Assembly (NCBI GenBank): GCA_963782915.1
Contig: CAWALK010000015.1
Span: 96,001 to 160,000 of the forward strand
Reading direction: 5' to 3'
Source of the DNA: an uncultured archaeon
GTDB taxonomy: Archaea; Thermoproteota; Bathyarchaeia; Bathyarchaeales; Bathycorpusculaceae
DNA length: 64,000 nucleotides
Position numbers and translations under genes: made by a program. Positions within the stretch are counted from its first letter, which is position 1. Every line of letters starts with the position of its first letter. Below are positions 14,555-43,757 of the stretch, piece by piece. The notes beneath the pieces are model-generated. The model had not been told where the DNA came from, searched no databases, and was given only the letters and a program-made list of their open reading frames with translations.

Positions 14555-14809
14555 TTACTTCTTTCTAGATTCTATTATTCCTCGGCATTTATCGGCGAAT
14601 TGACAGTATTCTAGACAAGCGGCAGATGGGTCAGGACGTTTCCATTCAGCGCCACAGCTTGGGCAAGTGGTTTTGTCTTCATCGGTCCAGATTTCAAGTT
14701 CTCCACCGCATACATGGCAGTTGATATAGGCGGGTTTTGGTTGTAATAGATCGCGCAGTCCAGGGCAGGTATCAGGGTTCTTTGTAACAGGTTTATCTTT
14801 AGAGCTCAA
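14555..14809 (-). CDS. Small Cys-rich zinc-ribbon protein
   Basis: CHVCG..CPSCG..CLEYC...C; start overlaps the stop of the upstream Fe-S gene. Confidence 0.75.
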   Translation of the reverse strand: MSSKDKPVTKNPDTCPGLRDLLQPKPAYINCHVCGGELEIWTDEDKTTCPSCGAEWKRPDPSAACLEYCQFADKCRGIIESRKK

Positions 14810-15437
14810 CAATGTCACCCCCAATTTTGACTTCGTACTCTTTAACTGGAACATGCTTGCCAGAGCCCTCCAACGCCTTGTTAACGGCCCATTTTAATCC
14901 TGTGCAGCAGGGCACTTCCATGTGAACAACGGTTATGGCGGCGATGTTGTTTTGCTGTAGTATCTCGGTTAGTTTAGCTGCGTATGCTCTTGCGTCGTTG
15001 AATTTGGGGCATCCGATGATTACTCGTTTGCCACTCATGAGGTCGTGGAAGTTTTTGAGTGCAACTGGCGCGCAGTCGGCTGCGAGTAGGAGGTTGGCGT
15101 TTTCGAAAAACGGCGCTTTTACGGGTACTAGATCGAGTTTAACTGGCCACTGGGGCTTCTGTGGACCGGTGTTTGCAGGTGCTGGTTTTGTGGTTCCTGT
15201 GGTTTTTAGGTATTCGTGGACTTCCGTCTCGCTGAAGGCGTCAGCTTCGCGTTCTGTAACTGTGATTGCGCCTTGTGGGCATTGTCCTAGGCATGCGCCG
15301 AGTCCATCGCAGTAGGTGTCCTTGACAAGTTTTGCTTTTCCATTAATGATTTTGAGTGCGCCTTCGGCACATTTGGGGATGCATTGTCCGCATCCATTGC
15401 AGAGGCTTTCATCTATATTTACGATTTTTCGTTTCAT
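14799..15437 (-). CDS. 4Fe-4S dicluster protein with Cys-rich C-terminal domain
   Basis: CNGCGQCIPKC, CDGLGACLGQCP; QWP, ADC, GCPK and MEVPCC motifs. Confidence 0.9.
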   Translation of the reverse strand: MKRKIVNIDESLCNGCGQCIPKCAEGALKIINGKAKLVKDTYCDGLGACLGQCPQGAITVTEREADAFSETEVHEYLKTTGTTKPAPANTGPQKPQWPVKLDLVPVKAPFFENANLLLAADCAPVALKNFHDLMSGKRVIIGCPKFNDARAYAAKLTEILQQNNIAAITVVHMEVPCCTGLKWAVNKALEGSGKHVPVKEYEVKIGGDIVEL

Positions 15438-15757
15438 ACTTGTTCCTCTTTTAGGCAGTTTCCGCCTGTGGGGCAAAATTTCATGGCATGGTTTTCTATG
15501 GCGTCAAAGATGGGGGCGATGGTTTCGAGGTTGACGGTTAGGATGTGTTTTTTGCCTTCTTGGTGGCTTGTTAGGATGTTGCATTCGAGTAGGGGTTTTA
15601 GGTTGTGGCTGATCATGCTTTGTTCTTGGCCGAGTGCTGTGGCGAGTTCGGTGACGCTCATTGGTTTGTTGATTAATTGTTCGATGGCGGCGAGGCGTGT
15701 GGGGTTTGCTAGGTTTGTGAAGAATCTGTAGCAGATTTGGGTTAGGCCTTTTTTCAT
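15434..15757 (-). CDS. ArsR/SmtB-family regulator
   Basis: LANPTRLAAI...SVTELA...QSMISHNL; ATGA-type overlap with the next gene. Confidence 0.88.
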   Translation of the reverse strand: MKKGLTQICYRFFTNLANPTRLAAIEQLINKPMSVTELATALGQEQSMISHNLKPLLECNILTSHQEGKKHILTVNLETIAPIFDAIENHAMKFCPTGGNCLKEEQV

Positions 15758-15897
15758 TTTTCTTGCCTCAACAGTGATATGAATAATGTTACATATGAAT
15801 AATTGTTCATATAAACGTTTCTGGTAAAATACCGCTCGATTGACCTGTAGATGGCGAAGTATTCGGCGACAAAAAGTCACAATTCTTATAATCTAAT

Positions 15898-19888: not shown

Positions 19889-20320
19889 ACCAAGTCACTG
19901 ACATCAATAGTCCTCGGCTTAGATATTACTCTCCCCAAGGAACACCCTGTTCCCGAAGATGGAACACCCAAGATTTAGGCGGGTACCAAAAAATTGGTGA
20001 TTATTAGCAATTAATGGGGATTAAGGACGCAGAATGAAGGGGAAGCTTTTTGAGTGCCCTTGTTCCATATTGCACGCTAAAGGACGTTAATATTTTGTCT
20101 AAAAAAGCAAAGAAAGCAGAAGGATTAGAACACCACAAGCAATTACAGCGAGAAAAAGATCAGAAACGCAAAGACCGCAAACAGGTTTCATTGCCGTCAA
20201 AACTCGCAAACAAGGGCAAAAAGTAGCCCTCCAAAAAAGAACAAGTGCCTTTTTCCTTTTTATAATTTTTACAATCAATGTTATCTTAAAATTTCGTTTA
20301 TTTGCCAGTCTGGAGAATGC

Positions 20321-20390
20321 TCGGGGTCTGTCATTTCGTTTAATTCTTCATCTTTCCCAATCAGACTGGGACGGCGACATCATCCCCCGA
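20321..20390 (-). ncRNA. Box C/D guide sRNA (70 nt); D' guide predicted to target the 23S rRNA G2251 equivalent
   Basis: Minus strand reads TCGGGG-G-ATGATGT(C)-CGCCGTCCCAGT-CTGA(D')-TTGGGAAAG-ATGAAGA(C')-ATTAAACGAAATGA-CAGA(D)-CCCCGA. It has a terminal stem, and both K-turn/K-loop motifs close with compensatory pairs (UGU/ACA and AGA/UCU). Confidence 0.8.
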
Positions 20391-20439
20391 TGGAAAACAC
20401 ACCGTCCCCGACTAAAAAGCCTTGGGTTCAAAGGAGGAA
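20366..20439 (+). repeat. attL: 18-bp core plus element left end
   Basis: 74 bp identical to 26407-26480; similarity continues to about 20511/26548. Confidence 0.9.
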
Positions 20440-21398
20440 GATAAAGATGAAGAAACAAACCCTAAGAACCCCAACAAAGTAAACCAGCAGACCCACAAAC
20501 ATCGGTAAATTAAACATTCCAAACGTTATGCTCTGGATGCTAAACGAACGCCTATGAGCAAACAACGATTAAGAGAGTGGCTAAAGAGCTTAGGCATTTA
20601 GAACGAAACTGCAAAACAAATAACCCCGAAGAAGTTAAACTCTTTATAGCTAAAAAGAACTGTTCAAATGCAAGAAAAGAAAACCTAATTGAGTCATACA
20701 ATATAGCGATAAAATCCTTAGGCTTAACATGGAACAAGCCATTTTATGAGCGCTATGATAAAAAGCGCAGAGCGCCAAAAGAAGCACTTTTAGATTTTAT
20801 GATTAATCATTTACGTTTTGAGATGGCACTTAAACTGTCATTACTCAAAGACTTAGGAACACGTCCACAAGAACTTACTGTGGTTAACAGTCAAAGACAT
20901 TGACCTTAACACTGGATTGGTAAGCATCACAGGAGCTAAAGCACACAGTAGGACGAGATGGGAAACTTAAAGCCAAATCAATGGCACTTGCTCAAAAGCT
21001 ATATAGAGAGAAAACAGCTAAATGCAAACAGCAAACTTTTCGAAGTTCAAGCATCAGACTAATTTAGGCAACGATGTACAGACACGCAAGAAACCGATTA
21101 GCCAAAGACTACAGCATGCCCGAACTCAAACAAATCTGCCTATATGACTTCAGACGCTTCAAAGCATCCAAAGAATACACGCTCTCAAAGCACAACACAT
21201 TCTATGTCAAGCAACTACTTGGACACAAAGACTTCACGAAGCATAGAACGCTACATAAGCGTATTCGATGATTCAAATGTAAACTGGATACCAGTAATAT
21301 GCCATAACCAAGAGGAAATAGAACAAGCAATCAAAGGATGACTGCGATCTTAGTATGCCAAGAGAATGGAATAACGTATTTTAAAAGAGCCTGTTTGA
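20422..21398 (+). CDS. Tyrosine recombinase/integrase, multiply frameshifted as assembled
   Basis: Fragments give NPEEVKLFIA, LLKDLGTRPQE (R), DIDL..GAK (K), YDFRR (HxxR variant), LLGH and IERY (Y). Confidence 0.85.
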
Positions 21399-21411
21399 AA
21401 ACACGTTAAAT

Positions 21412-22433
21412 TATGACAAACGTACAACTATCGAAATAACCCTTTAAAAGTTCGAGAAGAGCTACACCTTCTAGAATTTCCATTGTTTTAAGTGACAAAC
21501 GTGAGGAATTTTTATAAACACCTTGTGGAACAAGGTAAGAGTTGTAAAGAAATCAATCTCCAAATTTATAAAAAATACAAACAATATAAGTCTTCTGAAG
21601 AGCAAAATATGGCATCCCATATTGAAACTCTAGTCGTATGCTATTTAGCTTAATCAATGACGAGTCTATTGGACAACCATTAAAGATTACCATTCTTTCT
21701 GAAATCGGGATTTGTAATAGCTGATAAAAATATGAAAAATGAAGAGAAAAAATGATTCTTACTCTAAAAATTCTTTAATGAAATCAAACCATCGTGGTCC
21801 AAAATGTCATCTGAAAAAGGGATTTATCCAGATGATATAAATGGACACGAACATTCGATTTGTCTAATCGATGAGTACGCTAACAACATTAGCTGTTGCA
21901 ATAAAATTTAATTGTGAGGCAGATATCGACTCAACTTAATACGACAAGCAATTGCAAGAGTTCGAGTTCAGCTTAAAGAATTTGAAACATTAGCGCTATT
22001 ATCACGAATTGAAGGTATATTCAATTGCTATGGTGAATCAAGTAAAATATCAGGATTAAAAGTCTCCATTAAACAATCATCTGGTCTTTTACTTAAAGAA
22101 TTGTTGGAAGACTCAGAAATTATGGCTCTTTCTCAAGAAAGGTATATGTTAGGAATACCGAGTAAGGCTAAACTTGCTCTCAAGACAATCGGACAAAAAA
22201 CACAGGATGTACTTTCGGTTAATAAGAATAGAAAATATCTTGCAATTGCTCAAAAGGTAGGAAATATTGCGACGAAAAATATTGGGTTAGAAATCCCCGA
22301 GTTACCTATCGAGAAAGACACAGAATTCATGCCGCCTTTATTTGCCCTTAACGATTATAAACCAAATTGTCTAGTGACTTTAAAGGGCTCTACCATCGGT
22401 GATGCCCTCACCCAACGAAGAGCAAAACATTGA
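21412..22433 (+). pseudogene. AT-rich hypothetical ORF of element 1, broken by several indels
   Basis: Only the C-terminal 110 aa is intact (22101..22433); upstream sequence looks coding but shifts frame; boundaries approximate. Confidence 0.4.
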
Positions 22434-22454
22434 GTAAAAAGTCTGACGTGGGGG

Positions 22455-22525
22455 TCTCTTCACCCTTAAGCTCGCTTCGCTCCCGCTTGCGCGGGTCGCT
22501 CCGCTTCTGCCTCGCCGAATGTTGA
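22455..22525. other. Candidate rolling-circle origin region
   Basis: GC-rich CGCT-reiterated tract with a CCCGC-TTGC-GCGGG hairpin, downstream of the rep operon and within otherwise AT-rich sequence. Confidence 0.4.
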
Positions 22526-22673
22526 GCAAGAGCCAAACGATGCGTTGAGCTATTCATCAATTTCTTCGTTCTCCCACAAATCATCAAAGGGGACAAAGCC
22601 CAACTGTACTGAATCCAATATTCGCAGGTAACCGCCTACAAAAAGGCATGTGGTAGCGAATTCGCCATGACCC

Positions 22674-22892
22674 TTACCTCTGTTGTGGAAATCGAATAAG
22701 CCCAACATTGAATACCCATACTAATTCATCGGACACTTTGACCGCATGATACTCTATAATATGGGGAGGCTTAAACAACCCATTGCGCTCTAAGAAGTCG
22801 GTGCAGATTGCACCGACCTTTATCTTACTCCACTGGCGCTCTATTCGCCTTCTTTGCTGGCGAAGCATATCTATCCGCACTCCCCATGGCAA
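22674..22892 (-). CDS. Small hypothetical protein overlapping the end of rep
   Basis: 72-aa ORF coupled to rep; no recognised motif. Confidence 0.4.
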   Translation of the reverse strand: MPWGVRIDMLRQQRRRIERQWSKIKVGAICTDFLERNGLFKPPHIIEYHAVKVSDELVWVFNVGLIRFPQQR

Positions 22893-23920
22893 TCGCCTTC
22901 ATGCGCTACCTCCCAAAGCGGTGTCCCATCCTCAGCAAACATGCTTAGGACTTCGCCTTTTCGAGTAAGCAAGAGTTTAGAATTGCCTAAGTATCGAATA
23001 TGGACTAATTCTGAATTGCAGATTGGACACTTATGTTGAATTCCAACGTCTTTATCATCGTTGATTATCTCCAGCTTTCGATAGGAGCAAGCACCGAACC
23101 ATGTTGTCGCATGAGATTTTTTAGAGCCTCTTTGAATAGAGCAGTGATTTAACTGATACCAGCAAGTTCCGCCGACAGTCTTGCGTTTGTCTAAGACTTT
23201 GACAACCCAGCCGTCCTTTTTGTTTTCACGTCTTGTGATGCCTTCAAAGCCTTTGCAGGCGTAGCAGTCACCGCCTTTACATTTACGGCATAAACCGTAA
23301 CCTTCACCACCTACAAAGCCAAGTATGTGAAAGTGTGGACTCCAGCGCCAGCCAAAAGGCACACCTTTAATGCGTGCTTCTTTTCGATTGGCATAGCGGA
23401 AGCCATGAAAGATCATGGAGCCCCCGATTATGCCCCGATTAGCCATTAAACGAACTGCTTTTTTGCGTAGAACATCAAGACTTAAACCATAATCTTCGCT
23501 TCTGAACACTTACTACTATATGTTCTACTGGAAGCCCGAAGCGGTTTGAGGCTACTTTTAAACGTTCTTCCATTCGGTAAGCTTCTCTGACCAGCCCATC
23601 CATACTTGAAACAAATCGGACAAGTAGGTTTATCGCATGAGTGATAAATGGGTTTAACAAAAACTGAATCCTTTGCTAAACCCTCATTAAAGAAACGGGT
23701 TTGATTGTGAGCCTCATAATTTAGGCAGCCCATATATTTGTTGAATGTTCCGCATTTAGGGGATGTCTGTGGTCCATGACCGACAACCTCGTTTTCGCCA
23801 TAACTCCAGAAGTCATTTCTAATTATTGGTTTTTTGTCTGATTCGAACGGTTGATTATATTCAAGCCAAGCAGTTCTCTATTGCGATATTCTGATTATTT
23901 TTTAATTGACTGTTTTCCAA
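22871..23920 (-). CDS. HUH rolling-circle replication initiator (Rep), frameshifted as assembled
   Basis: Joined frames give a Zn motif (KCG..GC..H..SCDKPTCPIC), motif 1 EHIVVS, motif 2 PHFHILG, motif 3 WYQLNH and a C-terminal CPIC. Confidence 0.75.
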
Positions 23921-23996
23921 GTGTTACACCGAAACATTAAGTGCCAACCGTTAATAATAGGAACCGTATAACGTGGTAGAATTCGGAGTACATACT

Positions 23997-24626
23997 ATGT
24001 CCCAGCCTACAGAGGGAGAACATACATCAAAAGGAGTAACGGAAAACCAGTATTTGCCACCATTGCAGAAGCAAATTCTACTTTTCCTCGCTGAGAACCA
24101 TCCTCAATCTAAGATACAGCGTGTCAAAAGGGATGAAGGGATACTACAAATCGGTATATGACGCGATTGATGACCTCATTGAGAAAAAGATACTGGTAGA
24201 AATCAAAGAAGAGGAATACCGAAACCAAAAACACTTAGCGTATTGGCTTACACCCGCGGGAGTATTCATCGCACTTGTTCAAGGAGCCAAGGCTAAAACA
24301 GTCCTTAACAGAACAATCGCAGTTTATCCTGATAACAAGCATGCTTCAATGTATAGTTGAACTCACAACCATTCATAGGTACTGACGTACACCAGATAGG
24401 CTATCAGGCAATTCTCAAAAAAGGTAAATTAGAAAAAAGCGATATTTCGTTAATGTTGGGAACAATGCTTTTGAGGGAATTGAGTTTAGAGCAAGTTACC
24501 CAATTAATAGCTCTTATGAAAAAATATCCAGAGCAATATGGAGACTTAAAGCAACAAACAGATGAAACACTTGAAAAAATGAAGAAGGCTGAATTATTCT
24601 TTAAGGATGCTTTTGAGAAAAGTTAA
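23997..24626 (+). CDS. Winged-helix DNA-binding protein of element 1, split by 2 frameshifts
   Basis: LQKQILLFLAE...YKSVYDAIDDLIEKKILV...YWLTPAG; divergent from rep. Confidence 0.65.
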
Positions 24627-24659
24627 GGATTGACACCGCTCCGTTAGAGAGAAAGTGGG

Positions 24660-24691
24660 AAGCGAGCAACCACAAGGGTTGCCGCCGACTA
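24660..24691. repeat. Cargo-junction site B1
   Basis: AAGCGAGCAACCACAAGGGTTGCCGCCGACTA, preceded by TAGAGAGAAA. Confidence 0.9.
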
Positions 24692-24750
24692 ACGGTTTTT
24701 GTTTTTAATTTTTTGTAAATTAACTGATGACTTTTTTCTTTAAGGGTTGA

Positions 24751-26121
24751 TTAGGAAAGCGGGCGCTTTCTGTATTTATTTTCCTTTTTGCGATACAGCG
24801 CAAGAGTGACTAAGATAATAACAATTACTGGGACACCGATTATCGCCAATTCAATAGGAAAACTCGAAGGTGCATTAATGGTAAAATAGATTGTTTCTGA
24901 TGCATTCATACTGCCATATGTGTCATTCGCGTAGACAGTAAGGTTATGAGCACCATTTGAAAGATCGACTAAAGATAAGTTGTTGGTAAAGGTGACGTTA
25001 TTTTGACCGTCAAGGCTGTAACCACTCCAACTTATGGGCTTATCAAAAGTAATATTCAAGGAAACATTTGATTGATTATATGATTGATTTTGTTTAACTG
25101 AAAAGTTGATTTGCGGTGGAGTGGAGTAGCCGATTGGCGTATACAAGTCATTTAAACCGCTCTGAATTCCTCGAAACTCTTGAAATGTTATACCACCAAT
25201 TGTATAAATAAGATCATTAATATTTGCCACTCCAAAATATTGTCGCACATTAAGCATAGGTGTGCCTTCAGTCCAACTGTCGTTTTCCATATAATATGCT
25301 TTAGTAAGCAGTTCAGCACGTCCCTCGGGGTAGGCATAACCAAAAACGTAAACTAACTTGGGTGCTTTTACGCCTGCAGTTGCAGCGATGCCTAAAATCG
25401 AGTAAAACTCGCAAGGAGTGCTTGCAGTCCAGTTATCGGTTGCGTGATTATAAGTATATAGCACAGGGTCACGCGAGCGAGCGCTAACGATTATCTTATC
25501 ATTAAAGACCGTTGATACTAACCCGAATTCCATATAGTCTATAGGTATTCTTGTTTTTGTAGTCCATGTTTCATTACCGATATTATAAACAAATGTGTCG
25601 CCGACTTGGAAAATATAAATTGAGTCGTTAATCACTTGGGTTGTGCAGAAACCAATGCCATTAGGTGCAGATTTCTTGGACTCCCATATGCCAGAAGTTG
25701 TGTTATAAACCTCAAATGCATTAGTGCCGACATGAACTTGACCCACAAGACCATTTAGCGCAGGTTCGGTATATGATTGCATTCCAGTAATTCCTCCAAT
25801 GCAATAAATCAAGTCCCTATACGCTGCTATAGCGAAAAATGCTCGAGGCGTGGGCATGCTCGTTTTTATAGCCCAATTATCCGTTGCTGGATCATATTCT
25901 TCGTTGTTGCTTAACCCACCTATCATATTTACTCCCAATGAACCACCAATAGCATAAATTTTGTCGCCAACAGTAACTGTTCCTAATCCTGCTCTTGCTT
26001 GATGCATGGCTGCTTTAGGCATCCATGAGTCACTAACGGGGGTTATTCCACTAACAGGCGTAATGGCAACTATGCAAGCGATTAAAATTAGGGCTGATAG
26101 CAATATTGTATAAATTTTCAT
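24751..26121 (-). CDS. Secreted Kelch-repeat protein with Ig-like domain and TM anchor (cargo)
   Basis: Signal peptide, KIYAIGG/MPTPR kelch repeats, YSLDGQNN..GAHNLTVYAND domain, C-terminal TM helix. Confidence 0.88.
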   Translation of the reverse strand: MKIYTILLSALILIACIVAITPVSGITPVSDSWMPKAAMHQARAGLGTVTVGDKIYAIGGSLGVNMIGGLSNNEEYDPATDNWAIKTSMPTPRAFFAIAAYRDLIYCIGGITGMQSYTEPALNGLVGQVHVGTNAFEVYNTTSGIWESKKSAPNGIGFCTTQVINDSIYIFQVGDTFVYNIGNETWTTKTRIPIDYMEFGLVSTVFNDKIIVSARSRDPVLYTYNHATDNWTASTPCEFYSILGIAATAGVKAPKLVYVFGYAYPEGRAELLTKAYYMENDSWTEGTPMLNVRQYFGVANINDLIYTIGGITFQEFRGIQSGLNDLYTPIGYSTPPQINFSVKQNQSYNQSNVSLNITFDKPISWSGYSLDGQNNVTFTNNLSLVDLSNGAHNLTVYANDTYGSMNASETIYFTINAPSSFPIELAIIGVPVIVIILVTLALYRKKENKYRKRPLS

Positions 26122-26406
26122 TGCATCTTTCTTGAGCGATGAATAGTTATATAGTTTTACATTTTAGGTGGATCAATCAAATTGTGATTTTCAAATAAAA
26201 TATTTGAAAAAGGCTTATGAGTTGGTGCAAGGAAGCATCGCCCTGTGAATTTACAATAAAAGGATACTTGATAAATGTTATATTGGCGATTTTGAAAAAC
26301 CGCTTGATAAGCTTATGTCTGAACGTTTGAAGAAACAGGATTAAGGAGCAGGTAGTAGAATTTTTTAGCGCATGCTGTTTGAGCTATACTTCTGATACAT
26401 CTTTTC

Positions 26407-26548
26407 CTGGGACGGCGACATCATCCCCCGATGGAAAACACACCGTCCCCGACTAAAAAGCCTTGGGTTCAAAGGAGGAACAAAAGATGAAGAAACAAAC
26501 CCAAGACCCCCAACAAGTAAACCAACAGCCCCACGACATTGGTAAATT
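26407..26548 (+). repeat. att junction between elements 1 and 2, plus a remnant of the integrase 5' end
   Basis: Second copy of 20366-20511; integrase homology stops after ...DIGK. Confidence 0.88.
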
Positions 26549-26593
26549 TCATTGTCTGCTTACGGATAGTAGGCTAGTAGAGAGAAATGTTGG

Positions 26594-26625
26594 AAGCGAG
26601 CAACCACAAGGGTTGCCGCCGACTA
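26594..26625. repeat. Cargo-junction site B2
   Basis: Identical to B1; the stop codon of 26627..26965 lies 1 bp away. Confidence 0.9.
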
Positions 26626-26626
26626 C

Positions 26627-26965
26627 CTATAGGGATTTAGCGATTTTAGCTTTTTTGTATTCATTAAAGAAGGTTAAGGTTTCTTTCGCTGAGGTAACCA
26701 TTATGGTTTCGGTCTGAGTAAATGTAACGCGAGCCATATTTTCAGGCTCAAGCTCAAACTGCTTAAACGCCTCCATGCTGGGTGTCTCAAAGACAGCCCA
26801 TGAGGTATGCCCCCAGCGGTCAGTCCAAACACCTAAAACAGTTATACCATATTTGGCAGCAAGAGCGTCAATACTTTTCAACCAGCTCATCTTTATGTCT
26901 AAATTTCGGGGATTACCTAAAGGGCAGCTTTCAGGAGAGTGACTAATTACCTGCAAGATATGCAT
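26627..26965 (-). CDS. Small dimeric alpha-beta barrel (GYD/DUF3303-like) protein (cargo cassette)
   Basis: HSPESCP motif and GHTSWAVFETPS; flanked by B2 and B3. Confidence 0.65.
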   Translation of the reverse strand: MHILQVISHSPESCPLGNPRNLDIKMSWLKSIDALAAKYGITVLGVWTDRWGHTSWAVFETPSMEAFKQFELEPENMARVTFTQTETIMVTSAKETLTFFNEYKKAKIAKSL

Positions 26966-27028
26966 ATTAATAACCACTAAATGAAAGCGCTCAAATTTAA
27001 AAATGTAGCACTATAAAAGAGAAATCTT

Positions 27029-27060
27029 AAGCGAGCAACCACAAAGGTTGCCGCCGACTA
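27029..27060. repeat. Cargo-junction site B3
   Basis: 31/32 identical to B1; the single change lies in the hairpin loop. Confidence 0.9.
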
Positions 27061-27249
27061 AAGGACGCCCCGACCTGACTGGCGCTTCACCCATCGTATC
27101 TAAAGAAAGAAGAAAAATAATCACACTCTTTGACCCCTAAATCCTCTTTCCCCTATCTTAGGGAATACAGGGGACTTTTGGACACTAAAGGGCACCCTCC
27201 TCGCACCTAAGGACTCTGTTTTTGCCCTTTGCTAAAAAACTATATAGAG

Positions 27250-28719
27250 TCACGGACGAGTAAATGGCAGTTTTATTATGAATTTTGTTCCTTTGCCTAC
27301 TTCACTTTCAAAACTTATTGTTCCGCCTTGAGCTTCAACCATACGCTTTACAACAACTAGTCCAAAGCCTTGACCTTTAGCTTTAGTGGTAAATAAGGGT
27401 GTAAATAGTTTCTTTTGCACTTCTTTTTGGATACCAACGCCCGTATCTTCAATGGTTATGATGGCTTGGGTATCTTTTCTGCTGGCTTTAGCAGTTAATA
27501 TGCCCCCCTTTGGCATTGCCTGAATTGCGTTATTCACTAGATTTGTTAAGATTCTTCTCATAAAAGTTGGGTCAAGCTTAAGCTTAGGCATAGCTTCTTC
27601 GCAGTCTGCATTTGCTTGAATGTTATCTGGAATAATTATCGTTTTTATTGACTCAGGTATAAGTTGGCAAAGCTCAACTTCAACAAGGTTAGGTTGCAAG
27701 GTTTTAGAGTAGTCTTGCAAATCAGAAACAATCCTGTTAATGTAGTCAACTTGGTCTTGAATTACGTTAATGCTTTCTAATGTATCCTGTTTGATTTGAC
27801 TTTGCGGAGCTTCATTTATTGACTGTTTTTCAATATATAATTCACTAGTTATAGTCTGTAGTGGGTTACGAATGTCATGCCCAACCATGCCTGCAACTTG
27901 TCCAATAGTTACCATGTGCTCATTTTCTTGGAGTTGCTTTTCCATTCGTCTTCTTTCGGTTATGTTTTGCATGTAACCAATTATGCGTGTTGGGTTTCCT
28001 GCTTTATCTTTTAAAACCTTTGAAGCGCCTTGCACGATTATGTAGCCGCCGTCTTTGTGTTGTATGCGGTATTCATTTACCACCTTATCGGCAGAATCGG
28101 TTGGATAAAACTGCTCTTTGACCTTTGCCTTGTCATCTGGGTGCATTTGGCTAATCCACCAATCAACCGTATCAGGAACTTCGCCTGCGGTGTAGCCTAA
28201 AAGCTCTTCTAAGCCTCTAATAATTGTGATGCGATTGGTTTTTTGGTCGATTTCATAAATCATCATGCCAGCAGCTTCAACTACATAATTCAGTCGCTGG
28301 TTGCTTTCCACAAGCCAGCTGTCAACAGTTACCCTTTCAGTAACATCACGGGTTATCGACATTAAGCCGGCTTTGTTGCCCGCTTCATCTTTTAGCACAT
28401 TAATGGTTGTGTTATAAACTGTTTTTGTGCCATCAGGTTGTTGCTGAATGTTAATGCCTTGCCAGTATCCTTGATGCTTTAATGCTAAAAACGCCGTGTG
28501 CTCATCTTCTGGGCTAAACCATAGCTGCCTGTAAAATTGGGTTAGTTTTAAGCCGATGGCTTTTGCTTTGTCTATGTTATATCGTTGTGCTGATGCCTTA
28601 TTTAGGTAAATTAGTCGATCTTGGTTGTCGACCACTACAATGGCATCTCTAATTTGGTCGAAAGCACCAGTTTTCAATAAAAAATCTTTCTCGTTAACTG
28701 AAGCATCAGAAGTCGACAT
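27250..28719 (-). CDS. PAS-PAS histidine kinase (cargo)
   Basis: MHPDD PAS motif, GHDIRNPL, DTGVGI and FTTKAKGQGFGL. Confidence 0.92.
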   Translation of the reverse strand: MSTSDASVNEKDFLLKTGAFDQIRDAIVVVDNQDRLIYLNKASAQRYNIDKAKAIGLKLTQFYRQLWFSPEDEHTAFLALKHQGYWQGINIQQQPDGTKTVYNTTINVLKDEAGNKAGLMSITRDVTERVTVDSWLVESNQRLNYVVEAAGMMIYEIDQKTNRITIIRGLEELLGYTAGEVPDTVDWWISQMHPDDKAKVKEQFYPTDSADKVVNEYRIQHKDGGYIIVQGASKVLKDKAGNPTRIIGYMQNITERRRMEKQLQENEHMVTIGQVAGMVGHDIRNPLQTITSELYIEKQSINEAPQSQIKQDTLESINVIQDQVDYINRIVSDLQDYSKTLQPNLVEVELCQLIPESIKTIIIPDNIQANADCEEAMPKLKLDPTFMRRILTNLVNNAIQAMPKGGILTAKASRKDTQAIITIEDTGVGIQKEVQKKLFTPLFTTKAKGQGFGLVVVKRMVEAQGGTISFESEVGKGTKFIIKLPFTRP

Positions 28720-28982
28720 TAGAACACACAATAGTAGGAATAACCTGCAATTATTATTTTTTGTGCAAATTGAACGCCGTTAAACTGTGTGTATACGCTG
28801 GTGCTGCCGTTAAAAATTGAACCAAGCCGTTAAGACATTTTTCTGTGTGTTGCACCTGTGCTGAGGTTGTCCCAATTTGAACTAACACTTTTCACTTTAC
28901 CCGCCTGTCTAAAAGCGTATAACTGATGTAATAACAAGAAATTGAGGATAATACCTCAGTAAAAAATTACTTTACCCTAAGG

Positions 28983-29000
28983 CTGGGACGGCGACATCAT
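28983..29000 (+). repeat. attR: 18-bp core with the displaced host 5' end of the sRNA
   Basis: Core matches exactly, then the flank diverges; a minus-strand TATA-like AATTAATA lies about 27 bp before box C. Confidence 0.8.
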
Positions 29001-29911
29001 TCCCAATAGAATACGCTCCCCCGATATTATTAATTTTAGCAGGGATTAAAAAAAAGCAGGTTAGTAGTTGTTGCTGCTGTTGTTGCTGCAACCCTGCCCC
29101 CACAATAGTTGCAACTACTAACAAAACTTGCGCTTGTCTTTTACACTAAAGACGGCTATGGAGTATAGCGTATTTTTTTGCCATTGGCAGAAAGAAACAA
29201 CAAAAACAGCTAACGCACAACATACTTCCCCATCCTCATCCCATCCCATCTACATAGCGCCATGTATCGGATGGGGCAAAAAAGTCTCTTATCCCATCCC
29301 AACGCAAACACAAAAACAGCCCGAACCAAAAAACCAACCGCCCCCACAACCCACCCATGGGATGGGGAAACTCGGGGCGATCCCATCCCCACAAAGAACA
29401 AAAACAAACCCACCGCTTGACTTGCAGAGCACGCAGCAAAACAAACCACATCGTTTTTCTCAACTTTCCGGAAGCTAGTTATAAACCCTCAGTAATGAGC
29501 CAATCAGGGAAACCCACCGTTTATGTGCAGCCAAAAAAGCATTTTATCATGCGCCCACACCCACACAGCTTCAACATGGCGCCAATGTATCGAGTGTAGA
29601 GCAAAACATGCAGCCCACACTTAAAACAGGCATAGAAGAACAACCTAAATCCGAAAAGCAACGTAAACCGCAAACATAGGTGTGGTGTGGCAACATTAAA
29701 CGCCCATACCCACACAAAGAAGAAAAAACGAGACCACAAAAAACTAAATCCAACCAATACACCAACCATTCTCTAAGAGAAGTAATGTGCTAATCCTAAA
29801 AGCTGTAATTAAACAACAAGAATAAACACCGCAGATGAACCAACAAATACAAAAGTACTTCCAAAGAAAGGGAAAGCAACATAATCCCCTGTACACGGAA
29901 GCAAACGCTCA

Positions 29912-40918: not shown

Positions 40919-40996
40919 TGGTGGGCCGGACCGGATTCGGACCGGCGACCTTCTGCACGTCAAGCAGATGTCCTAACCAGGCTAGACGACCGGCCC
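40919..40996 (-). tRNA. tRNA-Val(GAC), CCA encoded
   Basis: GGGCCGG/CCGGCCC acceptor stem; anticodon arm TCTGC-TTGACGT-GCAGA; T-loop TCCGAAT. Confidence 0.93.
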
Positions 40997-41235
40997 ACAC
41001 ATTTTGCACTCTTTTCAATAGCGCCTTCCTATATATGCTCATCGTTTCAGAGGTAGGCACTTTGGTTAAAGAAACAGGCTTATTTGCGCTTTCTATGCGT
41101 TGCTTGTATGGTGGAGTGCCCGCATTAATACGTGTGTTCTGGAAGGTTTATCCTAAAAAGTGGAGGTAAGTCCAGAACTGCCTGACTCTTACAAAAAAAT
41201 TGTCCTTTGAAACAAAATCATTACTTCTAAAGTAG

Positions 41236-42025
41236 TCACATAGTGTTTGGGTAAGTACTATCAATCGCCCTCGCGTTCTGCTCTGCAAACTTGATTGTTT
41301 GGATCGTATTGTTTTTGCAATCAGTTAGCTGTTGCATTTGCAGTTCGGGCAGTTTCGCGTACACTAAAAAGCTCTCTATTGCACGGGCAAAGCAGAGCAT
41401 TTTGAGGATTTCTGTTGTTATGATGATGAGGCAATATTTGGGTGGCCTTGTCGCCCGTATTTCGGAGAATAAGCGGTTTAATTGGGTTCTCGAGTTTGCA
41501 CCGTAATAGCCAGCTTTGTATTGAATCCATTTTTCTGCATCAAAAGATAGCAATAGTTTGTTCACATAGTAATGGTCGTAATGCCTGCCGAGGCTTTCAA
41601 TTACTTCAGAGGCAAAGTGGGGATCAACGTATCTGCTGTACTCGTTTTGGAAAAATAGGAATTGTTCGCTTTGATTAAAATCGGTTGCGGCGTAATCGAG
41701 TAAATGGCAGAATTCTTCTAAAATGATAAACTCGCAATTATCGTCTGTTTTTTTTTTCAGGCCGTCGGTGTTGATTGCTATGGCGCTTCTGCCTTGTTTG
41801 GCGGCGTATGCATATGTTTGAGCGGGCATTTTGCCTTGGAAGCGTCCGCCGATTGCTTGGGTGATTTCCTGCTGAAAAACTTCAAGCAGGGAATTATTGT
41901 CGATGAATAGGATTTTTAGGGTGTTGTAATCGTCTGCAATTTGTGTTTTGGCTAATCAATGTTTCGCATATCGTTTTATAACGATTAACATCGTTTCTTG
42001 TCGTTGATCTGTACTGTGTTTCCAT
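41236..42025 (-). CDS. Hypothetical protein with a degenerate zincin-like EEFCH motif, frameshifted near 41955
   Basis: 197-aa ORF extends upstream in frame, then shifts to ATG 42025. Confidence 0.5.
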
Positions 42026-42207
42026 ACTTCCACTCGCTTGGGTCTATAGCTTGTGGCAATGATAGTTATAGATTTTTGTGGTGTTTGTTAACTGCCACTC
42101 ATTCTGCAGCAAATAATTCAGAAGAAAATCGCTGCGCATTCTCTGGGTGTTGATAACAGATGTTTTAAGTATCTTCCACCATAATATACCCTGTCTGGAT
42201 ATGGGCT

Positions 42208-43455
42208 ATGGCAGTAACAGATGAAATAACCTCCATACTAGTGGAATTCATCAACAAAAACTCTGACGTCGCCGATGTCCAATGGGACAGACGCATGAGC
42301 CCCAGACTGCTTTTCAATCCCTACTCCGAGAAGTATGAAGAAAGAAAAATAATCGCCCACTACTTCCTGCTTGCCGCATCAATCTTGGATGACACAGTGG
42401 TTGGGTACCCAGAAAACGCCCGCATGTTACTGTGCTATTTGCATACAGCGTTTGGCAGCAGCATGTTTGAAATAAAAAAAGCCCACCTCTTCGAAGAAGA
42501 AATCGTAAAAGCAGACTTTTACCGCGATTTGGGACCAAACAAGAAAGCTGCCTCCGAAATCCTCGCATCCGTAAACTTATTCGTAAAATTGAAAGCCGAA
42601 CGCAACCTCCTCACGTATGCCCAAAAATTCCGTAAACCCAAAGATTTCATCGAAGACTTAGCACAAAACATCCCCGCACTCGGCGGCCCCCACAAAGACC
42701 GCGCTTGGGTTTACATGCGTTGGATGGTTCGCCCCCAACCTGACCTGCAAATTTATGATCACCTCTTGCCCGAAGACCTCTACGTGCCCTTAACGAAGGA
42801 AAACGTGAATGTGGCGGCAAGTTTAGGTTTAGTCTCCTCTTTTTCGCCTGTTTGGCGTGACGAACGCACAGAAGCCGAAGCGAGACAGAGATTAACTGAT
42901 TATGCCAAACGCCTTTTTCCCAAGGACCCCGCCAAAGTAGATTACCCCTTCTTCCTGTTGGGCAGGTGGCTGAAACAGAAAACATTAAACCGCTATACGC
43001 TCAAGGCGGCGCTGGATTTTTTGGAGCAGATGCAAAAAATCACTGGGCAATCGCAGGCGTATTACCAGAAAATGAGCCGCTACAAAAGCGGGTGGGAAAA
43101 GAAAACCGCCCTCACGCTGCTGCGCCTGCACATCCCCTATGGCTATGAAACCATCAGTTTTCCGTTGCCAAACGAAGTCTACACCCCCGACTTCATTTTA
43201 GAGCGCAAGCTTCAGGGCAGAAAAATCATCCTCGAACCCCACTTCGAAATGACCAAAAAACAAGCCCGCAAATACGCCCTATTCAAACGCACCTACGGCC
43301 ACGAATTCCTCCTCATACTCCTACTAAAAAACGACTTAATCCCCCTCTACCACCAACGAAAAATCTTAACCGACGACGTATGCGACGACGTATGGCCCAT
43401 CGAATTTATCCATTTACTAGCCGAAAAAATACGACGCGGAACATACGGACAATAA
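42208..43455 (+). CDS. HhH-like (DUF2400-like) domain fused to a PD-(D/E)XK nuclease domain
   Basis: RAWVYMRWMVR...LYVPL...LFPKDPAKVDYPFF, then YKSGWEK...YETI...YTPDF...ILEPH. Confidence 0.75.
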   Translation: MAVTDEITSILVEFINKNSDVADVQWDRRMSPRLLFNPYSEKYEERKIIAHYFLLAASILDDTVVGYPENARMLLCYLHTAFGSSMFEIKKAHLFEEEIVKADFYRDLGPNKKAASEILASVNLFVKLKAERNLLTYAQKFRKPKDFIEDLAQNIPALGGPHKDRAWVYMRWMVRPQPDLQIYDHLLPEDLYVPLTKENVNVAASLGLVSSFSPVWRDERTEAEARQRLTDYAKRLFPKDPAKVDYPFFLLGRWLKQKTLNRYTLKAALDFLEQMQKITGQSQAYYQKMSRYKSGWEKKTALTLLRLHIPYGYETISFPLPNEVYTPDFILERKLQGRKIILEPHFEMTKKQARKYALFKRTYGHEFLLILLLKNDLIPLYHQRKILTDDVCDDVWPIEFIHLLAEKIRRGTYGQ

Positions 43456-43757
43456 ACCAATTAACCAGAGTTTTAGTTTCATTGTTTGGCCTGTAATCTG
43501 AAATTGAAAATGTTTTCCTTTAGTGTTTGTTGAATAACAGGATTACTTTTAGGGGGTGGCTGGGTTGGTCGGAGTGGGCGATTGTTTGGAGAGATTTAGT
43601 TTTTGTATTGGAAGGTGTAGTGGGTTTGTTGGTTGTTTTGGTTTTTTATGAATGCTGTGAAGCCGTGTTGGCTCATGCAGTTTTCTAATAGTTCTCGGCG
43701 CTGGCTGGGGGTTAGGTTTGTGACGTTGTAGGTTTTCTGTTCTGTCATGGTTTTGGC

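What the first reader, a model, noticed from the sequence alone, without database searches (positions are those of the whole stretch)
24645..27060. Integron-like cargo cassettes delimited by a 32-bp bulged-hairpin site that is not attC
Seen: AAGCGAGCAACCACAAGGGTTGCCGCCGACTA at 24660, 26594 and 27029, each preceded by an AGAGAAA block. The only mismatch falls in the loop. It folds as GCG-A(bulge)-GCAACC / GGTTGC-CGC. Shared identity ends at, or one base after, CCGACTA, and each copy is followed by the 3' end of one unrelated minus-strand gene: Kelch protein, GYD-like protein (stop codon 1 bp from the site) and PAS kinase. B2-B3 bracket a 435-bp single-gene unit. The sites lack RYYYAAC/GTTRRRY cores and L boxes. 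Inference: a gene-capture system that stacks single-gene cassettes at this site, using either the integrase on folded ssDNA (which rolling-circle replication would supply) or the HUH Rep by nick-and-join.
Basis: partly seen in the sequence, partly recalled or inferred. Interest (0 to 1): 0.87.

Follow-up and report, generated by a model that had tools for sequence, protein, structure and literature searches.

The report
Junction hairpin of stacked integrative plasmids
The repeated 32-base hairpin is real, but it is an internal border marker of small integrating plasmid-like elements that pile up at another site beside a small-RNA-like gene in these archaea, so it is not shown to be a new kind of gene-capture site.

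Summary
Observation confirmed. The 32-mer ("A", really about 48 nt) occurs at 24660, 26594 and 27029, plus once 79 kb away.

Interpretation mostly not supported. A belongs to a family of 4-6 kb integrative elements carrying a tyrosine integrase, a probable rolling-circle Rep and a wHTH gene. The direct repeat flanking these elements is a different 22-nt core, "B" (window 20366, 26407, 28983). B lies at the 5' end of a conserved host sequence that looks like a C/D-box sRNA gene.

Across 120 genomes of the genus, A is in 25. It normally sits once per B-started unit (20 of 22 units), at the border between backbone and one variable cargo gene. The window holds one decayed full element (A1 + Kelch) followed by backbone-less remnants (A2 + 116-aa gene; A3 + C motif + PAS kinase). 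This matches tandem accretion and decay, as known for bacterial ICE/IME/CIME islands.

Some evidence remains for cassette-like behaviour:
- A has sharp edges in many different contexts.
- One cargo module is 95% identical between two elements whose backbones are 73-79% identical, with breakpoints at A and at a second motif, C.
- C forms arrays of 4-5 single-gene units in two genomes.

What A does biochemically is unresolved.

The parts
20324..20387 (-). Conserved host sequence with the box order of a C/D-box sRNA (GGGGG-AUGAUGU-12 nt-CUGA-...-AUGAAGA-10-14 nt variable-...CAGACCCC). Its 5' end is the att core B.
   Evidence: Alignment of 10 genomes shows conserved boxes and a variable second spacer. 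Seven of 9 weak Rfam hits in 20250-20500 are C/D-box families on this strand, all below gathering score; the best is snR67 at 19.2 bits, E 0.07. B occurs in 105 of 120 genus genomes.
20366..20387 (+). B1: att core at the left junction (attL), preceded by the host 'class 1' flank.
20444..21388 (+). Tyrosine integrase, broken into three reading-frame pieces (pseudogene).
   Evidence: tblastn with the intact 320-aa G320 integrase gives HSPs in frames 1, 2, 1. The intact relative hits PF00589 at 30.9 bits, cut-off 27.1.
22874..23823 (-). Rep gene (H-x-H and conserved Tyr motifs), broken into three frames.
   Evidence: invariant H187, H189, Y246, Y271. Leads only.
23973..24626 (+). wHTH gene remnant. 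The longest ORF here is 89 aa, against 204-216 aa in relatives.
24645..24691 (+). A1: the A site at the backbone/cargo border of the decayed full element.
   Evidence: Same subtype and same left neighbour as in G352, G377 and G434.
24751..26121 (-). Cargo 1: Kelch-repeat protein with signal peptide and C-terminal TM segment.
   Evidence: Kelch_1, 62.9 bits.
26407..26548 (+). B2-long: second copy of B plus the integrase leader and first ~19 codons, 93% identical to 20366-20511. The rest of the backbone is deleted.
26578..26625 (+). A2: A joined almost directly to the integrase 5' remnant (backbone-less unit).
   Evidence: The same layout occurs in G320, G377, G193, G424, G429 and G472.
26627..26977 (-). 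Cargo 2: 116-aa ORF of no Pfam family.
27018..27060 (+). A3: third A, a different subtype (ATCTTAAG flank) shared with G157.
27156..27228 (+). C-long: second conserved junction motif (...CTCGCACCTAAGGACTCTGTTTTTGC).
   Evidence: nhmmer 58.5 bits. Alignments.
27250..28731 (-). Cargo 3: PAS/HisKA/HATPase histidine kinase.
28908..29004 (+). Element right arm ('class 2' flank with a promoter-like box) plus B3 core (28983-29004). This is attR of the composite.

Best explanation
A is the conserved core (about 36 nt, up to 48 nt with its 5' block) of a junction module inside a family of small integrative plasmid-like elements of one Bathyarchaeia genus.

How the elements integrate. Each carries a tyrosine integrase, a probable rolling-circle Rep and usually a wHTH gene. 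They integrate through a 22-nt core, B, at the 5' end of a conserved C/D-box-sRNA-like host sequence. An integrated unit reads: host flank-B-int-rep-wHTH-A-one cargo gene-element arm-B. The element arm carries a promoter-like box that would face int only in the circular or tandem form.

How the array forms. New elements enter at a B that is already occupied, and old ones lose their backbone. This is accretion and decay, as in bacterial ICE/IME/CIME islands. The result is a row of cargo genes, each still preceded by its own A.

What the window holds. It holds such a row:
- A dead full element (A1 + Kelch).
- A backbone-less unit (integrase 5' stub + A2 + 116-aa gene).
- A further remnant (A3 + C motif + PAS kinase), closed by the true attR.

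What A does. A marks the left edge of the cargo slot and serves as a crossover point when cargo modules are exchanged between elements. The most economical mechanism is homologous recombination across the invariant A and the conserved right-hand sequences (C or the element arm).

Shown: the layout, the B repeats, one A per unit, and the swap breakpoints.
Inferred: that Int acts at B, that accretion is the history, and that the swaps are homologous. The biochemical reason why A is so conserved is not known.
For: B as the att repeat:
- Five of 37 metagenome Rep loci have B at both ends of a 4.8-6.8 kb stretch. The left B has a conserved host flank and is followed by int. The right B is preceded by a conserved element flank.
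- The same layout occurs in genus genomes.
- B is in 105 of 120 genus genomes, and in 71 of 73 high-quality ones.
- In 5 of 6 single-B genomes examined, the DNA right of B is an integrase 5' remnant.

Distribution of A:
- 25 of 120 genus genomes.
- 0 of 360 class genomes outside the genus.
- 20 of 22 B-started units hold exactly one A.
- A follows the wHTH gene in full elements of G320, G377, G352, G434 and G471.

The window's copies came separately. Its three A copies fall in three subtypes, each with its nearest relative in another genome, so they did not arise by local duplication.

Decay in the window. int, rep and wHTH are broken.

Backbone-less units. B-A-cargo-B units of about 0.9-1.9 kb occur in G424, G429, G472 and G448, and as second units in G320 and G377.

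Cargo exchange:
- Units share only A (~90 nt) and the right arm (~80-100 nt); the cargo between them is otherwise unrelated.
- G370 and G434 share a 717-nt A-cargo block at 95%, while their backbones are 73-79% identical.

Precedent. Accretion with decayed att-flanked elements is described for bacteria (PMC5704250, passages of section 2.3 read).
Against: - Two A-A units have no B between them: window A2-A3, and G324 with copies 313 nt apart. C-C units without B occur in G370 (5 C) and G353 (4-5 C). Accretion at B alone does not explain these.
- In 6-8 of 22 units the backbone deletion ends within about 25 nt of A. That is far more than random end-points would give, and it hints at a site-specific process or strong selection at A.
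- The A core is 96-100% identical between elements whose other DNA is 70-83% identical. Acting as 'portable homology' does not by itself explain this.
- No excised circle or empty site was observed. The only public runs found hold 5-7% of the sampled words.
- Gene maps of relatives are my own longest-ORF calls, not curated annotation.
Confidence: 0.6

Rival explanations
1. A (perhaps together with the related motif C) is a true site-specific recombination site of a non-attC cassette system. Single-gene circles carrying one site are inserted or excised at A, either by the element's integrase acting on the folded strand or by Rep nick-and-join.
For: - A is a discrete module with sharp 5' and 3' edges in many different left and right contexts.
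- The A2-gene-A3 unit (435 nt) and the G324 A-A pair lack B.
- C arrays have single small accessory genes between sites, for example ABM, DUF454 and MntP in G353.
- The G370/G434 swap has breakpoints in A and at the edge of C.
- The arms and spacer (9-10 / 5-7 / 8-9) resemble a simple tyrosine-recombinase site; this comparison is my recollection.
Against: - 20 of 22 units have a single A.
- Cargo orientation is mixed.
- The integrase is not IntI-like.
- The intact int+rep element in G382 lacks A.
- 13 of 25 A-bearing genomes have no Rep match at E<=1e-10.
- No covariation: 0 compensatory, 6 wobble and 15 mismatch cells out of 207.
- A3 differs from A2 in the spacer/loop, which usually blocks simple-site recombination (recalled).
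Confidence: 0.12
2. A is a replication signal of the rolling-circle Rep. It could be the nick site (the minus strand reads CAACC-CTTGT-GGTTG, with CTTG in the loop) or a dispensable single-strand origin. Units between two A copies would be by-products of initiation and termination at successive copies.
For: - Rep has invariant H-x-H and Tyr residues.
- Its Atlas neighbours include clusters in which 17-64% of members carry Rep_1, with Zn_Tnp_IS91 in 15-20%.
- All four named hits among the top 50 viral fold matches are Microviridae replication initiators, at E 0.008-0.017 and low TM.
- Enzymes of that group cut after CTTG (recalled, not tested).
- A shows sequence-level conservation that includes the loop, a fixed orientation, and a non-coding position. 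It is absent from some complete elements, as single-strand origins can be.
Against: - A is absent from elements with intact, 86-87% identical Rep (G382/L089, L033) and from all more distant Rep loci.
- No analogous CTTG-loop hairpin occurs there.
- A universal CTTGAT lies inside rep itself, in the YGLSLD codons, as an alternative nick candidate.
- A persists in units and genomes without Rep.
- The Rep fold assignment is weak: no PDB hit below E 0.18, and no Pfam hit.
Confidence: 0.12
3. A and C are transcriptional insulators or terminators: RNA hairpins flanked by purine-rich and T-rich tracts that work on both strands. They travel with cargo genes and are kept because read-through from the integrase promoter or from convergent cargo genes is harmful.
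For: - C-long has A5 on its 5' side and T5 on its 3' side around a stem that shows one compensatory variant (GCGAG/CTCGC versus ACGGGC/GCCCGT).
- Many minus-strand cargo genes stop 1-60 nt from A.
- A1 and the G377 copy are followed by T runs.
- A sits just after the wHTH stop codon in full elements.
Against: - Most A copies have no T run on either side.
- The A stem shows no covariation, and the loop is invariant in intact elements. This points to sequence-specific recognition rather than to a generic hairpin.
- No expression data are available.
Confidence: 0.1

Closest known systems
Tandem accretion of integrative elements with decayed att-flanked remnants (CIMEs), e.g. ICESt1/ICESt3-type islands of Streptococcus (PMC5704250; passages read)
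   Same: A tyrosine integrase acts at one conserved host site. Successive elements integrate into an occupied att. Old units lose their recombination and maintenance genes but keep att repeats and cargo, which gives composite islands.
   Different: The host is archaeal. The elements are very small (4-6 kb, with units down to 0.9 kb). The target is a C/D-box-sRNA-like sequence rather than a tRNA or protein gene. A rolling-circle-type Rep replaces the conjugation genes. Extra conserved junction modules (A, C) border the cargo slot.
Integrons, including those reported in archaeal MAGs (bioRxiv 10.1101/2022.02.06.479319; passages read)
   Same: Rows of small, unrelated, mostly single genes are separated by short conserved hairpin-forming sites next to a tyrosine recombinase.
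   Different: - There is no IntI-specific domain signal.
- The site is 32-48 nt and lacks R''/R' cores and L boxes.
- There is usually one site per unit.
- Cargo lies on both strands, with its own promoters.
- Stacking is explained by a double-strand att core (B).
Archaeal integrative plasmids and cryptic integrated elements with pNOB8-type (non-splitting) integrases
   Same: They are small elements with an integrase next to attP, flanked by direct repeats after integration, and often decayed.
   Different: The target here is not a tRNA gene. The Rep has no Pfam family. My searches found no description of this family or of a C/D-box sRNA target.
Single-strand origins and RS_B-type recombination sites of bacterial rolling-circle plasmids (recalled)
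   Same: They are non-coding, orientation-fixed and hairpin-forming, dispensable, highly conserved between otherwise diverged plasmids, and located at module borders.
   Different: They are much longer (150-300 nt) and their function is shown experimentally. For A nothing is shown, and it persists without Rep.

Membership tests
Integron (IntI + attC cassette array) | Integrase of the IntI subfamily, with its additional domain | tested here: not met
   TIGR02249 scores 19.6 bits against a cut-off of 265. The best NCBIfam hit is archaeal XerA at 44.4 bits against 220.
Integron (IntI + attC cassette array) | attC with R''/L''...L'/R' boxes (RYYYAAC / GTTRRRY), 57-141 nt | tested here: not met
   By reading, the site is 32-48 nt with GAGCAAC / GTTGCCG, a single stem and one bulge. 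No attC covariance model was available.
Integron (IntI + attC cassette array) | Arrays of at least 2 sites less than 4 kb apart, with cassettes in one orientation | tested here: not met
   Only 2 of 22 units have more than one A. Cargo is about 17 minus and 12 plus.
Site-specific integrative element (tyrosine recombinase) | Tyrosine recombinase gene next to one att repeat | tested here: met
   PF00589 at 30.9 bits (cut-off 27.1) and phrog_216 integrase at E 8e-13. int starts about 55-80 nt after B.
Site-specific integrative element (tyrosine recombinase) | Direct repeats of the att core at both ends, one end in a conserved host sequence | tested here: met
Site-specific integrative element (tyrosine recombinase) | Excision to a circle, or an empty site in relatives | not testable with these tools
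   No usable reads. Five of 6 single-B genomes still carry integrase remnants.
HUH rolling-circle Rep (Rep_1 / microvirus gpA-like) | HUH motif and catalytic Tyr | tested here: met
   H187-F-H189, Y246 and Y271 are invariant in 17 sequences sharing 38-86% identity.
HUH rolling-circle Rep (Rep_1 / microvirus gpA-like) | Family model or fold match | tested here: inconclusive
   - No Pfam, PHROG or NCBIfam hit.
- No PDB hit by sequence or profile.
- Foldseek against PDB: best E 0.18.
- BFVD: 4 unnamed hits at E<=1e-3; named hits are all Microviridae initiators at E about 0.01 and TM 0.2-0.3.
- The model has pLDDT 70.
C/D-box sRNA (for the host sequence that holds B) | C, D', C', D boxes with ~12-nt spacers and a terminal stem | tested here: inconclusive
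   The box order fits: AUGAUGU, CUGA and AUGAAGA are conserved, but the last box reads CAGA or UGA rather than CUGA. Rfam hits to 7 C/D families are all below gathering score.
CRISPR solitary repeat / mini-array | Same repeat in a CRISPR array of the host or its relatives | tested here: not met
   No genome has more than 4 copies, and none are in arrays, in 120 genus and 401 class genomes. My crude scan found no array in the own genome.
tRNA-derived att site | Overlap with a tRNA gene | tested here: not met
   ARAGORN and Rfam find tRNAs only at 40919 and 45406.

The most novel reading that the evidence does not exclude
A and the related motif C are the recombination sites of an archaeal cassette system unrelated to attC/IntI. 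Small circles of one gene plus one site would be inserted next to an existing site in islands seeded by these integrative plasmids. This would give arrays of up to 5-6 sites (G370, G353, the window) and let cargo move between elements independently of the backbone.
Probability: 0.13. Interest if true: 0.85.

Novelty: new variant of a known kind. Interest (0 to 1): 0.5.

Why it matters
If my reading holds, the locus documents three things for Bathyarchaeia:
- A family of tiny integrative, probably rolling-circle, plasmids that my searches did not find described.
- An unusual integration target, a C/D-box-sRNA-like sequence that is nearly always occupied.
- Island building by accretion and decay, which brings varied cargo genes into the chromosome, among them secreted or membrane-anchored proteins and histidine kinases.

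These organisms are uncultured, so such elements are candidate starting points for genetic tools (att site + integrase + replicon).

The conserved junction modules A and C remain unexplained. They show that cargo moves between elements at fixed borders. If that exchange proved to be site-specific, it would be a second, independent invention of an integron-like system.

Tried and rejected
- **tRNA or known RNA at A.** None found.
- **CRISPR solitary repeat.** No arrays.
- **A as a remnant of an integrase 5' coding region.** Local alignments of A against 23 post-B regions gave z < 3, except where a true A lies there.
- **A coding for a peptide.** Indels that are not multiples of three occur between subtypes just upstream of the core.
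- **CCGACTA as a core shared by A and the post-B hairpin.** It is present in the window and G320 only, not in G377, G352, G370 or G308.
- **A as the universal Rep origin.** See rival 2.
- **Homology between A and C.** They share GGWAGCGAG, a stem-loop and a TAAGG tail, and L034/L090 carry a hybrid. However, nhmmer with the A profile finds no C copy, so this stays a lead.
- **Read-level test for circles or deletions.** Only two runs were found, holding 0.05-0.07 of the sampled words.
- **Viral contigs.** No Rep relative.
- **Plasmid and phage collections.** No Rep match.
- **Hits in bacterial records.** The four bacterial-titled stretches with the exact 21-mer share only the hairpin, not the A flanks.
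- **Paper supplements.** They were not available. The supplementary tables of the archaeal-integron paper may list Bathyarchaeia MAGs that I could not check.
Full report
**1. The observation**

The 32-mer occurs three times in the window, at 24660 and 26594 (exact) and at 27029 (one loop mismatch). None of 100 shuffles gave any match. A fourth copy lies in the same genome, 79 kb away on the other strand (G000:C15:41210-41239).

With its AGAGAGAAA block the conserved unit is about 45-50 nt. As ssDNA the energy is -9.3 to -9.5 kcal/mol with z = -3.3 to -3.9.

The three neighbouring minus-strand genes are as described, with one exception. The 116-aa ORF has no Pfam hit, so 'GYD-like' is unconfirmed. 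No tRNA or Rfam family overlaps the site.

**2. A second repeat changes the picture**

A 146-nt repeat at 93% identity lies at 20366-20511 and 26407-26548. A short copy lies at 28983-29004. Its first 22 nt (CTGGGACGGCGACATCATCCCC) I call B.

After the first copy comes a frameshifted tyrosine integrase. Further on lie a frameshifted Rep and a broken wHTH gene. In G320 (locus L021) the same element is intact: int 320 aa, rep 340 aa, wHTH 204 aa, then A.
- The integrase passes Pfam Phage_integrase at 30.9 bits against a cut-off of 27.1.
- It is far below the integron-integrase model, at 19.6 bits against 265.

**3. B is the att repeat**

*Metagenome evidence.* I searched metagenome contigs with the Rep and obtained 37 loci.
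- Eleven of them hold B.
- Five hold it at both ends of a 4.8-6.8 kb stretch.
- The left B is always preceded by the same host flank (GGGGTCTGTC...TTCTTCATCTTT...ATCAGA) and followed by int.
- The right B is preceded by a conserved element flank (...AAATTACTTTGCCCTAAGG) and followed by unrelated DNA.

*Genus evidence.* Genus genomes show the same layout.
- About 60 nt upstream of the right-hand B, the element flank carries a promoter-like box, GCTTATAACTAG. I saw it in most of the 26 class-2 flanks I listed.
- In a circle or a tandem this box would face int. That is an inference.
- B occurs in 105 of 120 genomes of the genus and in 71 of 73 high-quality ones. It is mostly single-copy.

*The host sequence.* Read on the minus strand, the host flank plus B has the box order of a C/D-box sRNA, with conserved boxes and a variable second spacer. 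Seven of nine weak Rfam hits there are C/D families, all below threshold. I therefore call it C/D-like and no more.

*Occupancy.* In five of six single-B genomes the DNA right of B is still an integrase 5' remnant. The site appears to be almost always occupied.

**4. Where A sits**

A (up to 3 mismatches) is in 25 of 120 genus genomes, 35 copies in all:
- 19 genomes have one copy.
- Four have two.
- G320 and the window's genome have four.

Outside the genus:
- A was in none of 360 class genomes.
- A was in none of the 37 metagenome Rep loci. L034 and the contig end of L090 carry a variant that keeps only CAACCACAAGGGTTG, fused to the tail of motif C.
- Across one genome per species, the exact inner 21-mer was found in 18 stretches: 11 Bathyarchaeia/Bathyarchaeota-titled, one 'uncultured archaeon', two Methanocella-titled and four bacterial-titled. 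The four bacterial ones share only the hairpin.

In the fetched loci I found 36 copies.
- 24 have a B within 9 kb upstream. They fall in 22 units.
- 20 units hold one A and two hold two (the window's second unit, and G324).
- The usual order is B-[int, rep, wHTH, or less]-A-one cargo gene-element flank-B.
- Cargo differs from genome to genome and lies on either strand. Examples are Kelch, radical SAM, GT2, PRC barrel, Ig-like secreted proteins, MntP, ABM and DUF454.
- Units share only about 90 nt at A and about 80-100 nt at the right arm.

**5. Reading the window**

- **Unit 1 (20366-26406).** A dead full element ending in A1 and the Kelch gene.
- **Unit 2.** It starts with a copy of B plus the integrase leader and first codons (26407-26548). 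This is joined within 29 nt to A2, which is followed by the 116-aa gene.
- **Remainder.** Then come A3, motif C, the PAS kinase, and the class-2 flank with B3 (28983), which is the true right end.

G320 and G377 have the same full element plus a backbone-less second unit. Backbone-less units also stand alone at the host site in G424, G429, G472 and G448.

The three window copies of A belong to three subtypes. The nearest relative of each is in another genome:
- A1 groups with G352, G377 and G434.
- A2 groups with G464, G473, G193 and G429.
- A3 groups with G157.

They therefore arrived separately and were not duplicated in place. This is what tandem accretion followed by decay produces, as reviewed for bacterial ICE/IME/CIME islands (PMC5704250, passages read).

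**6. What this does not explain**

- A2-A3 and the G324 pair have no B between them.
- A second motif, C-long (about 80 nt, window 27156-27228), forms rows of five copies in G370 and four to five in G353. One or two small genes sit between copies, with no B.
- G370 and G434 share a 717-nt block at 95% identity. It begins in A and ends at the edge of C, while their backbones are 73-79% identical. Cargo therefore moves between elements with breakpoints at these motifs.
- In 6-8 of 22 units the backbone deletion ends within about 25 nt of A.
- The A core is 96-100% identical between elements that are otherwise 70-83% identical.

A is therefore a discrete, constrained module. Homologous exchange across it is the simplest account, but a site-specific process is not excluded.

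**7. What A is not shown to be**

- **A structure under selection for pairing.** Among 23 distinct variants, 207 pair cells give 186 unchanged, 0 compensatory, 6 wobble and 15 mismatched.
- **Required by Int or Rep.** G382 has an intact 6.3-kb element without it. Also, 13 of 25 A-bearing genomes have no Rep match.
- **The family's common origin.** No comparable hairpin exists in A-less elements, and a conserved CTTGAT lies inside rep.

Rep itself is only provisionally an HUH initiator.
- For: invariant H-x-H and Tyr residues, Atlas neighbours with Rep_1, and weak fold matches to microvirus initiators.
- Against: no family model and no PDB match.

**8. Literature**

My searches found no description of this element family or of integration into a C/D-box sRNA gene.
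- In the Bathyarchaeia virome paper, I read the passages that mention 'integrase' or 'plasmid'. They describe viral integrases and plasmid databases, not small Rep-bearing integrative plasmids.
- The archaeal-integron paper describes canonical IntI and attC (passages read).

**9. Verdict**

The sequence feature is real. The integron-like mechanism at A is largely not supported.

The locus is best read as a stack of decayed small integrative plasmids at a C/D-like sRNA site. A is their conserved backbone/cargo junction and a crossover point for cargo exchange. I give a minority chance of about 13% that A and C are true cassette recombination sites.

Noticed in passing
window 20324-20387 (-), and the same place in 9 other genomes (alignment A3): The integration target looks like a C/D-box sRNA gene, and the att core covers its C box and first guide. 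The att site is nearly always occupied by an element or by an integrase remnant.
   Followed up: partly
window 28908-28982; class-2 flanks in 26 loci: A promoter-like box, GCTTATAACTAG, lies about 60 nt left of the right-hand B. It would face int only in a circle or tandem, so integration may switch the integrase off.
   Followed up: no
window 27156-27228; G370 (L029) five copies; G353 (L025) four to five copies; G000:C25:121504-121587: Motif C-long (about 80 nt, ending CTCGCACCTAAGGACTCTGTTTTTGC) separates single small genes in rows without B. It shares GGWAGCGAG, a stem-loop and a TAAGG tail with A. L034 and L090 carry an A/C hybrid.
   Followed up: partly
window 29066-29404: An A/C-rich stretch is repeated at about 82-86% identity on at least seven other contigs of the genome (C24, C9, C22, C14, C19, C20, and more weakly C12 and C23). 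There is no Rfam match at E<=1. Its nature is unknown.
   Followed up: partly
window 14555-15880 and 40919-43463, compared with L021 1-5330: In G320 the genes matching window 42-43 kb and tRNA-Val lie directly beside the genes matching window 14.5-15.9 kb. The segment that carries the element array therefore appears inverted or moved between the two species.
   Followed up: no
downstream of A in L021, L023, L026, L024 (second unit) and L030: Several plus-strand cargo genes share a promoter-like TAAGTAAATTATATAAC box and a signal peptide, M..(I/M)GKYLS..LVVILA. They form a family of secreted proteins that recurs in the cargo slot.
   Followed up: no
L094, L098, L108, L109 (bacterial-titled records): The same GGCAACC-ACAAG-GGTTGCC hairpin occurs in unrelated bacterial contigs, twice in L094 just beyond the 3' ends of the adjacent minus-strand ORFs. 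These are probably independent terminator-like hairpins.
   Followed up: partly
G000:C15:40301-41259 (L030): A solitary A-small ORF-class-2 flank-B unit lies 79 kb from the array in inverted orientation, next to a gene whose product begins MGITTEFEFTLPEGYVDENG. It may be a displaced remnant or the trace of an inversion.
   Followed up: no
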